From the NCBI RefSeq assembly GCF_009914755.1, contig NC_060931.1: a stretch of 64,000 nt of DNA, one strand, 5' to 3'. The notes under the pieces are model-generated. The model ran no database searches. It was given only the letters and a program-made list of their open reading frames with translations, and was not told where the DNA came from. How positions within the stretch are numbered: position 1 is the stretch's first letter; each line of letters begins with the position of its first letter. Shown piece after piece: positions 17,950 to 20,559 of this stretch. Made by a program: the position numbers and the translations under genes. This DNA comes from the human T2T-CHM13v2.0 reference genome, Homo sapiens.

Positions 17950-18697
17950 TTTTTCTTTCAGTTGAAACATACAACTTTTTTGATGATACACAAATGAAGC
18001 TTTTGGTGGATAAATTGAAGTCAAAACAAATAACAAAACAGTATGTCATTTATAATAGACAGGTTCACTGTCAATTCAGAGGAACCAGTAAAAAATATTT
18101 CAATCCAAGCAGCATGATTAAAATCACAAATATGTTTTCAGCACAAGAGGACTATTTATTTGATATTCATAAGATGGTTCAGCTTGAAGCAGGTGACTGT
18201 CACAGATAACATCACTCTGGGTGAGACATTATTCAAAACTAGCAGCTGAAAGGATCCCTTTATTATATGACTAAGTGGAAAAGCAGTAACTTTCAATTTT
18301 CAATGCCTCCAGCTGCAAAACCAAGAAATTTCTTGAAGTCTTTTGAGAGCACATAACCAATTAGAATTTGTTCACTAGTTTTATAACTTTCACTTTCACC
18401 GAGAGGTCATCTGATTTGCTAAGGCTCTAATTTTCTTAACACACACTCCAAATGCAATGCATACGTTTGAAAAGGGAAGCTTTATTGAATTCTCTATAGC
18501 TGAACACTTCTACTCTGAGATTGTCATAGATGATCTCAAATATAGTAAGGGCATCAATAAAAATTTCTTATTCCACATAAGAATTGTAGAGATAATTAAA
18601 TATGTAGACACTTGGGTACTGAGAAGTTTTTTCTTTTTTTAGCATATCTGATTTTCAGCAAAATTCAAAATTATTTTCAAAATCTCAACCTTGATTC
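17950..18697 (-). pseudogene. ARMCX2: ARMCX2-derived processed pseudogene fragment (C-terminal CDS 18361-18697, 3'UTR, decayed poly(A))
   Basis: Frameshifted translation IKVEILKIILNFAEN...[29 protein letters not shown]...[12 protein letters not shown]...KLVNKF* matches the recalled ARMCX2 C-terminus; ends in an A-rich tail. Confidence 0.85.
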
Positions 18698-19010
18698 TTA
18701 GCCACCAAAGCCATAAAGGGTGCACCCCTGCCACTTAAACACATAGACTACGCCCATGGCTGTTACATCTTGCACTTGGCATGCTTGGTGTGACATCATC
18801 CTGGATCACATTCTCCAGAAACACCTTCAAAACCTCCTGGATCTCCTCATAGATGAGGCCAGAAATGCTCTTGACACCATCACACCAAGCAAGATGCCAG
18901 ATAGGAGGCTTGCAGATAGATGCCTTGCAGGCTGTCATACGTAGGACCTTGCAGTGACACTTAGTTCCTTCCTTACCCAGTCCTTTTCCACCTTTGCCTC
19001 AGCCAGACAT
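18698..19010 (-). pseudogene. Histone H4 pseudogene (complete CDS with stops and frameshifts)
   Basis: ATGTCTGGCTGAGGCAAAGGTGGAAAAGGACTGGGTAAG = [39 protein letters not shown]; ends TLYGFGG-TAA. Confidence 0.95.
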
Positions 19011-20559
19011 GACAAAACAGATGCTTTTTCTTTTTGTGGTTCAGTTTGCAAAAATTTTATGACCTGTGTTCAAATTTCACTGATCTTTTTTTCTGTGGTG
19101 CCCAATATGATGTTAAGGGTACACAATGAATTTTTCATTTCATATATTGTATTTCCCATGTCTTCACCTATTCCTTCTTTCTTTCCTTGTAAATTCCTAA
19201 CTATATTTATAGTAGTTGTTTTAAAGTCATAAGTCTGCTAATTCCTCTGTCTAGGTCATCTTGTGGGTCTCCTATTGATGATTTCTTTCTCTTATGTATC
19301 AGATTTTTTTTGCATCTTCCCATGTCTCAATATTTTACCGTAAGGCAAAAATTGTGTATAAATGATAGTGGATACTGCTGTATAATATTTTGTGTTTTGT
19401 TTTCACAGAACTTTCAAATCCTTCCTTCCATTCAGGTTTATGGGATAATGGGTTGTTTGTCCAGTGCCAACTAAGATGTGAAGACTGGAATTGGGCTACA
19501 GTATTAACCCCAGCTTCCTGCATTGTTGCCACTAAGTGGTTCATCCCTTTGATACTGTCAGAATTTAACTGGAAGGAGATTAGTTGCCACATGAGTTGGT
19601 TTGGATGACTTTTGGATTCAACTACAATTAGGCTTTAGAATCAGAACACTCAAGACTGCACAAACTTTCTCTAGTTTCTAGCCTCATGCCCACTGATACT
19701 TCAGGATACCCCTTTGTCACTTTTGCAGCAAATTCTTAGAGTGGAGAGGGAATTGTTGGACTAAATAATTTATGTTTGCATTAGAGCTCTTCCAAATTCC
19801 AATTCGTCTTGCCAGCCCATGCTATTATTAAGTATTCAATGGATTTTTTTTTTTGTTCTTTGAAAAATTTCTCTATCTATAGCTAGGCCACTTCTCTACT
19901 CACCTATGCCCAGAGTAGACATTGGCCTCTATATATAAAAATGTCCACAACTCTTTACTCATATGTAAAGGGCTTGCTATACTCTGCTGTTTAGTTTATT
20001 ATGCCTATTTGTATCTACTTCTCGATGGCTTTGGGGATAAGTGTGAGAGTTTTTTTGTTTTATCTGTTTTTTTTTTTTCTTGTTACTCTGGAAGCAGTAG
20101 TTTCCACATTTTATTATATTTTTATTAGGTGGGATGTTCTGTAAATGTCTACTAGGTCTAGATGGTTTGTATTGCTGTTGAAGTCATCTTCTCCTTTTGT
20201 AAAAAATTTTCTGCCTAGTTGTCCTATCCATTATTGAAAGTGGGGCACTGAGGTTTCCATACATTATTGTTGGATGATCTGTCTCATCCTTCAATCCGAT
20301 TTTCTTCTTTTAACTCATGTTATATGCCATCTACTGCCTCCATTGTTTCCGATTAGTCAGGTATTAATCTTATTGGGGTTCTTTGGTAAGTAATTATTTT
20401 TTTCTTGTCACTTTCAGATGGTTCTCTTTATCTTCAGATCTCAGTATTTGTGGTTTTTTTCAATAAATACATAAATTAATTATCTTTTATTTTAAATTCT
20501 GCTGTGGGGGAAAGTAAAGGATTAATTTACTCTTACCTCTTATTTTCCCCTACAGCATA

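What the first reader, a model, noticed from the sequence alone, without database searches (positions are those of the whole stretch)
17950..19020. Chimeric retrocopy: complete histone H4 CDS fused to the 3' end of ARMCX2 mRNA in one insertion
Seen: on the minus strand an H4 CDS from ATG (19010) to TAA (18698) is followed at once by ARMCX2 C-terminal CDS, 3'UTR and a decayed poly(A). There is no histone stem-loop, no internal poly(A) and no internal TSD. The unit interrupts one old L1 with degenerate T-rich flanks (~17939-17951 and ~19024-19035). The junction falls where H4 ..GGTGGC-TAA resembles ARMCX2 ..GG-KIK codons (recalled), suggesting microhomology. Established: replication-dependent histone mRNAs lack poly(A) and are poor L1 substrates, and L1 template switching creates U6/3'-RNA chimeras. 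Inference: L1 RT primed on ARMCX2 poly(A) and switched template to an H4 mRNA (codons resemble H4C5/HIST1H4E as recalled), a route for retroposing non-polyadenylated mRNAs. H4 keeps its stop, so no fusion protein is implied.
Basis: partly seen in the sequence, partly recalled or inferred. Interest (0 to 1): 0.75.

Follow-up and report, generated by a model that had tools for sequence, protein, structure and literature searches.

The report
Histone H4 / ARMCX2 chimeric retrocopy
A dead copy of a histone H4 message is fused head-to-tail to the tail end of an ARMCX2 message, and the pair was pasted into an old L1 repeat in one event, which shows how a message without a poly(A) tail can be copied back into the genome.

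Summary
On the minus strand, a full-extent but broken H4 coding copy (19010-18698) abuts the last 109 codons, stop, whole 3'UTR and poly(A) site of ARMCX2 (18696-17958). There is no histone stem-loop, spacer or internal poly(A) at the joint.

The unit sits in an old L1 ORF1 region. Its two flanks overlap by 17-28 nt in 4 of 6 uninterrupted copies of that repeat, and an A-rich 12-nt direct repeat (10/12) brackets the whole unit.

Raw identities (74% against 88%) suggest different ages. They do not differ once CpG decay and H4 paralogue divergence are removed: 10/139 (7.2%) for H4, 21/216 (9.7%) and 61/716 (8.5%) for ARMCX2 (Fisher p 0.45 and 0.74).

This is one L1-mediated insertion. The most likely route is a template switch from ARMCX2 mRNA to H4 mRNA; RNA ligation before insertion is not excluded.

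True overlap at the crossover is only 0-2 nt. The H4 source paralogue is unresolved.

This is the only H4 copy found outside the histone clusters. It is a new member of a known kind, of moderate interest. Orthologous empty sites could not be checked.

The parts
19024..19035 (-). 5' copy of the target-site duplication (AAAAAGAAAAAG), which is the last L1 bases before the insert
   Evidence: The upstream flank aligns to related repeat copies up to window 19022-19026.
19011..19023 (-). 13 nt of non-L1 sequence before the ATG, read as the proximal H4 5'UTR
   Evidence: It ends in GTC before the ATG, as in 8 of the 14 H4 genes. BLAST matches to H4 loci reach up to 13 nt upstream of the ATG.
18698..19010 (-). 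H4 pseudo-CDS, full in extent (313 nt against 312). It has TGA at codon 4, indels of +2, +4, -4 and -1, and heavy CpG decay. The stop TAA is at 18700-18698.
18695..18697 (-). Crossover: G (18697), then AA. The G is either the first 3'UTR base of an H4 gene that reads TAAG, an untemplated base, or a later A>G change in the ARMCX2 A-run.
   Evidence: Three-way comparison of the unit, the ARMCX2 parent and the H4 genes.
18361..18696 (-). ARMCX2 C-terminal coding part (last 109 codons plus stop), now with stops and frameshifts. It includes a 7-nt A-run insertion at 18640-18634.
   Evidence: A weak Arm_2 hit on one fragment (18.7 bits, below the 20.4 cut-off).
17958..18360 (-). ARMCX2 3'UTR, running to the parent's polyadenylation site (AATAAA, then 18 nt ending CAACTGA)
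17951..17957 (-). Short decayed poly(A) remnant (AAGAAAA). Its border with the TSD is uncertain.
17939..17950 (-). 3' copy of the target-site duplication (AAAGAGAGAAAG, 10/12 to the 5' copy). L1 sequence resumes at 17938.
17757..17938 (-). Downstream flank: old L1, ORF1 region, same strand as the insert
   Evidence: A weak collinear tblastn alignment to a young L1 ORF1p, residues 133-189 (E 5.4). An ORF1 nucleotide hit at 16861-16795 (E 2e-6) lies exactly collinear once the 619-bp masked insert at 16952-17570 is subtracted.
19036..19320 (-). Upstream flank: the same old interspersed repeat
   Evidence: Nine dispersed genomic matches at 71-78% identity. Aligned to six of them.

Best explanation
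This is one L1-mediated insertion, made by target-primed reverse transcription into the A-rich part of an old L1 ORF1.

Inferred steps:
1. The nicked T-rich bottom strand primed on the poly(A) tail of an ARMCX2 mRNA.
2. The reverse transcriptase copied the 3'UTR and the last 109 codons.
3. It then left that template and continued on an H4 mRNA, starting at or 1 nt after the H4 stop codon and running to within a few bases of the H4 5' end.
4. The cDNA was joined to the other side of the break, duplicating about 12 nt of target.

Shown: the anatomy, single-event status and equal age of the halves. Inferred: the template switch and the exact acceptor point.

The copy was dead on arrival and has decayed neutrally. 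About 9% of non-CpG sites have changed. Using recalled neutral rates, that is tens of millions of years, roughly 40-90 My.
For: Origin of each half:
- The ARMCX2 part is 88-89% identical to the chrX gene and collinear with it. It ends at that gene's poly(A) site and is followed by an A-rich remnant.
- The H4 part spans the 5'UTR remnant to the stop, with no promoter, 3'UTR or stem-loop.

Single event:
- Both parts share one orientation and are joined without any spacer.
- In 4 of 6 related repeat copies, the upstream flank ends and the downstream flank begins within an overlap of 17-28 nt. No L1 sequence is lost and one short duplication brackets the whole unit.
- No repeat brackets H4 alone.

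Equal age:
- At H4 sites that are invariant in all 14 paralogues and never in a CpG, 10/139 differ (7.2%, CI 3.5-12.8).
- At ARMCX2 codon positions 1+2, where the protein barely varies among the 16 mammalian orthologues fetched, 21/216 differ (9.7%, CI 6.1-14.5). Fisher p = 0.45.
- For the whole ARMCX2 half against its parent, 61/716 non-CpG sites differ (8.5%). Fisher p = 0.74.

Neutral decay and rarity:
- ARMCX2 codon positions 1, 2 and 3 changed equally (11/108, 10/108, 10/107), which is neutral decay.
- CpG-context sites in H4 differ at 18/63. This explains the low raw identity.
- This is the only H4 match outside the chr6, chr1 and chr12 histone-gene sites (17 matches from 20 candidates).

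Precedent:
- The architecture matches the published features of L1 template-switch chimeras (PMC2104539, passages read).
Against: - The TSD is low-complexity and imperfect (10/12). Similar 12-mers are frequent: 197 with <=2 mismatches in 64 kb.
- The nick site, read from the flank, is TTTTT/GT, not the recalled TTTT/AA consensus.
- The H4 part is 3'-truncated at an internal position. The classic description has full-length 5' partners.
- Overlap at the crossover is only 0-2 nt.
- No unusual RNA structure lies upstream of the switch point in ARMCX2 (z = -0.5).
- A third near-copy of the target motif lies inside the ARMCX2 part (18638-18627, 11/12), next to a 7-nt A insertion. It remains unexplained. 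About 0.2 such matches are expected by chance in the unit (my count of roughly 24 one-mismatch hits).
- No H4 paralogue is close. The best has 51 residual mismatches of 307, so the donor sequence at the junction is not known.
- No other species could be examined.
Confidence: 0.6

Rival explanations
1. A chimeric RNA formed first. An H4 mRNA fragment cut at its stop codon was ligated to a 5'-truncated ARMCX2 mRNA fragment, for example by RtcB joining a 2',3'-cyclic phosphate end to a 5'-OH end. This single poly(A)+ RNA was then retrocopied by L1 in the ordinary way.
For: RtcB-type ligation before retrotransposition is shown for U6/L1 chimeras. It was also proposed for 3'-truncated small RNAs joined to other cellular RNAs (PMC6789731, passages read). 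The joint here is essentially blunt, with 0-2 nt overlap and both partners truncated internally. That is what a ligation of two cleavage products would give. The flanks, age and orientation fit this model as well as they fit template switching.
Against: Mature histone mRNA is not known to carry a cyclic-phosphate end (recalled). The ends needed here require two separate endonucleolytic cuts. No sequence at either cut suggests a known nuclease (inspection). No such fusion RNA is known to me. For trans-splicing specifically, the ARMCX2 side has no AG at the joint, and the best-matching H4 gene has GC, not GT, after TAAG.
Confidence: 0.2
2. The H4 piece was captured as filler when the 5' end of a 5'-truncated ARMCX2 retrocopy was repaired. 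A stray H4 cDNA or DNA fragment was ligated into the break by end joining, not copied by a continuing reverse transcriptase.
For: It has the same age and the same TSD, because it is the same integration event. The joint is blunt.
Against: Filler capture has no orientation preference, yet H4 is in the sense orientation. H4 also runs from near its 5' end exactly to the joint, as expected for a polymerase running off the end of a template. This rival cannot be excluded from the sequence alone.
Confidence: 0.08
3. Two independent events happened: an ARMCX2 retrocopy, and later or earlier a separate H4 copy that landed exactly at its 5' edge. A variant is a deletion that fused two neighbouring insertions.
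For: Raw identities differ strongly, 70-74% for H4 against 88-89% for ARMCX2. A TSD-like motif occurs inside the ARMCX2 part at 18638-18627.
Against: The identity gap disappears after removing CpG sites and paralogue-variable sites. H4 has no poly(A), no TSD of its own and no stem-loop. ARMCX2 is collinear with its parent on both sides of the internal motif, so that motif is not an insertion boundary. The L1 flanks show one target duplication and no loss.
Confidence: 0.05

Closest known systems
Bipartite chimeric retrogenes / retro-pseudogenes made during L1 reverse transcription (Buzdin, Gogvadze and co-workers; features listed in PMC2104539)
   Same: Two different transcripts are fused directly in the same orientation. 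The 3' part is a 5'-truncated copy ending in poly(A). Short direct repeats flank the whole unit. mRNAs are among the reported partners.
   Different: Here the 5' partner is a replication-dependent histone mRNA. It is not full length: it stops at its stop codon and lacks its 3'UTR and stem-loop. The 3' partner is a cellular mRNA, not L1. The 2003 catalogue (PMC169886) is not held, so I could not check whether this locus is already listed.
U6/L1 chimeric pseudogenes
   Same: An RNA without poly(A) is carried into the genome on the poly(A) tail of a second RNA, in sense orientation and within one TSD.
   Different: U6 is full length and ends at its natural cyclic-phosphate 3' end, which suits RtcB ligation. 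H4 is cut internally and has no such end known.
Ordinary processed pseudogenes, such as the H3.3-type copies and the chr4 ARMCX2 fragment found here
   Same: The ARMCX2 half on its own is an ordinary 5'-truncated processed pseudogene with a poly(A) site and an A-tail.
   Different: It carries a second, unrelated message at its 5' end.

Membership tests
L1 template-switch chimeric retrocopy (features i-v of PMC2104539) | The 3' part is a 5'-truncated copy of an RNA that ends in its own poly(A) | tested here: met
   ARMCX2 starts 109 codons before its stop and ends at the parent's poly(A) site, followed by an A-rich remnant.
L1 template-switch chimeric retrocopy (features i-v of PMC2104539) | The 5' part is a full-length copy of a cellular RNA | tested here: not met
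   H4 keeps 13 nt of 5'UTR and the whole CDS but lacks its 3'UTR and stem-loop. 3'-truncated 5' partners are reported for U1, U3, U5 and 5S chimeras (PMC6789731).
L1 template-switch chimeric retrocopy (features i-v of PMC2104539) | The parts are joined directly in the same transcriptional orientation | tested here: met
   Both parts are on the minus strand, and at most 1 unassigned base lies at the joint.
L1 template-switch chimeric retrocopy (features i-v of PMC2104539) | The whole chimera is flanked by short direct repeats (TSD) | tested here: met
   A 12-nt repeat matching at 10/12. The flanks overlap by 17-28 nt in 4 of 6 uninterrupted repeat copies. Because the motif is low-complexity, the repeat alone is weak evidence.
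L1 template-switch chimeric retrocopy (features i-v of PMC2104539) | The two parts have the same age (one event) | tested here: met
   7.2% against 9.7% and 8.5% at comparable non-CpG sites, p = 0.45 and 0.74.
L1 template-switch chimeric retrocopy (features i-v of PMC2104539) | Both parts are present or absent together in other species | not testable with these tools
   No other primate or mammalian genome is searchable here.
RtcB-ligated chimeric RNA retrocopy (U6/L1 type) | The 5' partner ends at a natural 2',3'-cyclic phosphate terminus | tested here: not met
   H4 ends internally, at its stop codon, not at the mature end after the stem-loop. The end chemistry of a cleaved fragment cannot be read from DNA.
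Functional replication-dependent H4 gene | An intact 103-codon ORF followed by the 3' stem-loop | tested here: not met
   Stop at codon 4 and four indels. No Histone3 match.

The most novel reading that the evidence does not exclude
The acceptor template was not an intact H4 mRNA. [quoted passage not shown] If this is general, histone mRNA turnover at the end of S phase would supply the free 3' ends that let poly(A)-less messages enter the genome by riding on another message's tail. The rare dispersed copies of replication-dependent histones would then be enriched for stem-loop-less chimeras.
Probability: 0.12. Interest if true: 0.6.

Novelty: new member of a known kind. Interest (0 to 1): 0.35.

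Why it matters
Replication-dependent histone messages have no poly(A) tail, and this genome suggests they rarely leave processed copies. Only one H4 match lies outside the histone clusters. One replicative-type H3 copy was found, against at least 15 H3.3-type copies among the 20 loci fetched.

This locus is a clear, datable example of how such a message can still be retrocopied, by sharing one reverse-transcription event with a polyadenylated message.

It also carries two practical lessons. RefSeq lists the halves as two neighbouring pseudogenes, although they are one event. And raw identity to the parent can misdate a CpG-rich, multi-paralogue sequence by a factor of two or more.

The locus has no sign of function.

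Tried and rejected
Searches on decayed fragments:
- Pfam gave nothing for the H4 fragment or the L1 flanks. It gave only a sub-threshold Arm_2 hit for one ARMCX2 fragment.
- PDB sequence searches with the two flank ORFs gave no L1 hit.
- The L1 identity of the flanks therefore rests on collinear weak matches to a young L1 ORF1 and on dispersed copies.
- My first attempt at this picked the wrong ORF (ORF2) from the L1 locus. One search corrected it.

Mechanism tests:
- RNA folding of 130 nt of ARMCX2 upstream of the switch point showed no unusual structure (z = -0.5).
- Trans-splicing was rejected. There is no AG at the ARMCX2 side of the joint. A good acceptor, CAG, lies 13-14 nt upstream but was not used. 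There is also no GT after the joint in the best-matching H4 gene.
- The internal TSD-like motif at 18638-18627 was rejected as a boundary, because ARMCX2 is collinear on both sides of it. Such motifs are also common.
- A longer TSD (AACTGA..., 15/18, D1) was considered. Its first 6 nt are also the true end of the ARMCX2 3'UTR, so the 12-nt reading is kept. The true length may lie between 12 and about 23 nt.
- Histone mRNA decay intermediates are reported to pile up about 15-17 nt 3' of the stop codon, with further ones inside the ORF (PMC9745837, passages read). The joint here is at 0-1 nt after the stop, so it does not match the main class.

Source paralogue:
- Assigning the H4 source failed. 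L022, L019 and L023 tie at 51-52 residual mismatches of 307.

Side search for a second histone chimera:
- One replicative-type H3 copy lies on chrX (L056). The 200 nt after its stem-loop match nothing else in the genome, and from nt 201 an interspersed repeat begins. I left this open.

Literature and earlier findings:
- H4P1 as a whole word gave 11 papers, none on this locus by title in the search listing.
- LOC347674 gave 1 paper, a GWAS study.
- A loose query on 'H4 pseudogene' was uninformative.
- The Buzdin 2003 catalogue is not held.
- No supplementary files were opened.
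Full report
**What is there**

On the minus strand the region reads as follows:
- old repeat sequence
- AAAAAGAAAAAG (19035-19024)
- 13 nt ending GTC
- ATG (19010), then an H4-like stretch ending in TAA (18700-18698)
- G (18697)
- AATCAAGG..., an ARMCX2-like stretch ending in ...CAACTGA (17958)
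- AAGAAAA
- AAAGAGAGAAAG (17950-17939)
- the old repeat sequence again

The window's own genome (human T2T, chr7) turned out to be searchable, so both halves could be compared with their parents.

**The ARMCX2 half**

- It matches one chrX locus at 89% over all 739 nt. A local BLAST gives 88.4% over 759 aligned columns.
- That locus encodes a 595-residue open frame with a full Pfam Arm_2 domain (E 2e-93).
- Its closest database relatives are named armadillo repeat-containing X-linked protein 2. There are 124 proteins at E<=1e-20, and the best is 98% identical.
- The retrocopy holds the last 109 codons, the stop (18363-18361) and the 3'UTR. It ends 18 nt after the parent's AATAAA.

**The H4 half**

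- It aligns with all 14 intact H4 genes of this genome over the full 312-nt CDS, at 70-74% identity.
- It is not an intact gene. Codon 4 is TGA, and there are four indels, +2, +4, -4 and -1.
- It has no stem-loop. Rfam finds no Histone3 match in 17700-19300 even at E<=10.
- As a control, a real H4 gene locus gives Histone3 at 32.5 bits (gathering score 34), directly 3' of its CDS.

**Is it one insertion?**

Four lines of evidence bear on this.

1. *The flanks.* They belong to one old interspersed repeat, with nine other genomic matches at 71-78%.
   - I aligned both flanks to six of those copies.
   - In 4 of 6, the upstream flank stops at window 19022-19025 and the downstream flank starts at 17950-17964.
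   - These map to copy positions that overlap by 17-28 nt. The target is therefore intact apart from a short duplication.
   - In the other two copies, the downstream alignment was misplaced in one and started later in the other, with a gap in place of an overlap (MAFFT view).
   - The repeat is L1, ORF1 region. The downstream flank gives a weak alignment to residues 133-189 of a young L1 ORF1p (E 5.4). An ORF1 nucleotide hit at 16861-16795 (E 2e-6) falls exactly where collinearity predicts once the 619-bp masked insert at 16952-17570 is subtracted.
2. *The direct repeat.* A 12-nt repeat matching at 10/12 brackets the whole unit (and direct reading).
   - By itself it is weak, because the motif is low-complexity. 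It occurs 197 times with <=2 mismatches in the window, against 31 expected.
3. *No separate boundary for H4.* No repeat brackets H4 alone, and no poly(A) or spacer lies at the joint.
4. *Age.* See the next section.

**Age of the two halves**

Raw identity looks like a refutation: 74% for H4 against 88% for ARMCX2. Two things distort the H4 figure. H4 genes are CpG-rich, and the paralogues differ at synonymous sites.
- At the 204 of 312 columns that are identical in all 14 paralogues, the ancestral base is known whichever gene was the source.
- Among these, sites never in a CpG differ at 10/139 (7.2%). CpG-context sites differ at 18/63 (28.6%).
- For ARMCX2, the like-for-like set is codon positions 1+2. 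The C-terminal protein barely varies among the 16 mammalian orthologues I fetched, so changes there lie on the pseudogene branch. They number 21/216 (9.7%).
- The three codon positions changed equally (11/108, 10/108, 10/107), as expected for neutral decay.
- The whole ARMCX2 half against its parent gives 61/716 (8.5%) at non-CpG sites.
- Fisher tests give p = 0.45 and p = 0.74. The halves are the same age within error.
- Pooled, 31/355 (8.7%) of sites have changed on the pseudogene branch. With recalled neutral rates this means tens of millions of years, roughly 40-90 My.
- One weak pointer fits an early date. At a Thr/Ala codon, the pseudogene has GCA (Ala), like platyrrhines, two lemurs and afrotherians. 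Catarrhines have Thr. The site is homoplastic across mammals, so it counts for little.

**The junction**

- The unit reads ...TTTGGTGGCTAAGAATCAAGG...
- The ARMCX2 parent reads ...GGAGGTGGAAAAATCAAGG...
- The H4 gene that shares this 3' end reads ...TTCGGTGGCTAAGGCTCC....
It is 2 nt out of register, however.
- H4-specific CT lies 3' of the pentamer, so GGTGG was copied from H4 and could not have guided the switch.
- The usable overlap is the AA of the stop codon against the ARMCX2 A-run (2 nt, if 18697 is a later A>G change). It is zero if the G is H4 3'UTR or untemplated.
- Only 2 of the 14 genes have G after TAA, and only one has GGTGGCTAA followed by G.
- The source paralogue stays unresolved. 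Three genes tie at 51-52 residual mismatches of 307 once CpG-type changes are removed.

**Mechanism**

The architecture matches most of the published feature list for L1 template-switch chimeras: a 5'-truncated poly(A)+ 3' part, a direct same-sense joint and flanking repeats (PMC2104539, passages read).

It departs in one feature. The 5' partner is 3'-truncated. This is reported for non-U6 small-RNA chimeras (PMC6789731, passages read).

The same paper shows that U6/L1 chimeras can arise by RtcB ligation before retrotransposition. A 2025 preprint lists ligation, trans-splicing and template switching as live options (10.1101/2025.02.02.635956, passages read).
- Trans-splicing is unlikely here, because the joint has no AG or GT.
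- Ligation cannot be excluded from DNA alone.
- I found no pausing structure in ARMCX2 upstream of the switch point.

**Context: how rare are such copies?**

- A protein search of the whole genome scored 20 candidates and gave 17 H4 matches: 14 intact genes, two decayed copies inside the chr6 histone cluster, and this one. This is a lower bound.
- For H3, a DNA search gave 40 matches. I fetched 20 dispersed or odd ones.
  - 15 are 83-99% identical to an H3.3-type retrocopy.
  - One of those 15 (L063) lies within the chr6 histone-cluster region.
  - Two are equidistant H3-variant-like loci.
  - Only one (chrX, L056) is closer to replicative H3, at 73.5% against 68.8%.
  - Two rows do not fit cleanly. 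L061 is 83% to the H3.3 type but frame-shifted. The residues I used to tell H3.3 from H3.1 are recalled, not taken from a tool.
- The chrX copy keeps a recognisable stem-loop (Rfam 19.3 bits, E 0.11). It is 5'-truncated, and its homology to at least one H3 gene runs about 30 nt past the stem-loop.
- The 200 nt that follow are unique in the genome. So it is not an obvious chimera, and its origin is open.

**Verdict**

The single-event chimera reading is well supported. Template switching is the best but unproven route. The microhomology and paralogue claims are weakened. RefSeq lists the two halves as separate pseudogenes. I found no paper on the locus and could not see the 2003 catalogue. The locus is a new member of a known kind.

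Noticed in passing
window 18627-18640 (minus strand): Inside the ARMCX2 part, the parent's GAAGAAA is replaced by AAAAAAAGAAAAAA, a 7-nt A insertion plus a G>A change. This creates an 11/12 match to the 5' TSD motif. It may be A-run slippage, or it may be a trace of a brief excursion of the polymerase. It is unexplained. About 0.2 such matches are expected by chance in the unit.
   Followed up: partly
window 17946-17963 versus 19029-19046: The last bases of the ARMCX2 3'UTR plus its tail (AACTGAAAGAAAAAAAGA) resemble the L1 target just upstream of the insert (AACTGAACCACAAAAAGA) at 15 of 18. This may be chance. It may also be target-template complementarity that helped priming beyond the poly(A) (D1).
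   Followed up: no
L003 (G000:C4:114147201-114147375): A second, independent ARMCX2 retrocopy: about 175 nt of 3'UTR ending at a proximal AAATAAA signal, followed by 15 A. It is 91% identical to the parent and 88.6% to the chr7 copy.
   Followed up: partly
L056 (G000:C23:101060435-101060764, minus strand): The only dispersed H3 copy among the 20 fetched that is closer to replication-dependent H3 than to H3.3. It is 5'-truncated at CDS nt 62 and keeps the 3'UTR and a stem-loop. It has no clear poly(A), and an A-rich run lies directly 5' of it. An interspersed repeat starts 200 nt downstream. Its origin (read-through transcript, DNA copy or chimera) is open.
   Followed up: partly
window 16795-17938 (minus strand): The host L1 ORF1 remnant continues beyond a 619-bp masked insert (16952-17570). 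The ORFs across that insert look Alu-like (my reading, not tested). Collinearity with a young L1 ORF1 is exact once the insert is subtracted.
   Followed up: partly
window 20129-20294 (minus strand): A fragment resembling the L1 ORF2 endonuclease domain (E 3e-7) lies 5' of the ORF1-like flank. It is therefore not collinear with it and probably belongs to a different L1 piece.
   Followed up: no
L063 (G000:C6:26190254-26190621): An H3.3-type processed copy (92% to another H3.3-type retrocopy) sits inside the chr6 replication-dependent histone cluster region.
   Followed up: no
L019 2837-2908: A tRNA gene (58 bits) and Alu/SRP-like matches lie within 1.5 kb of one H4 gene on chr6.
   Followed up: no
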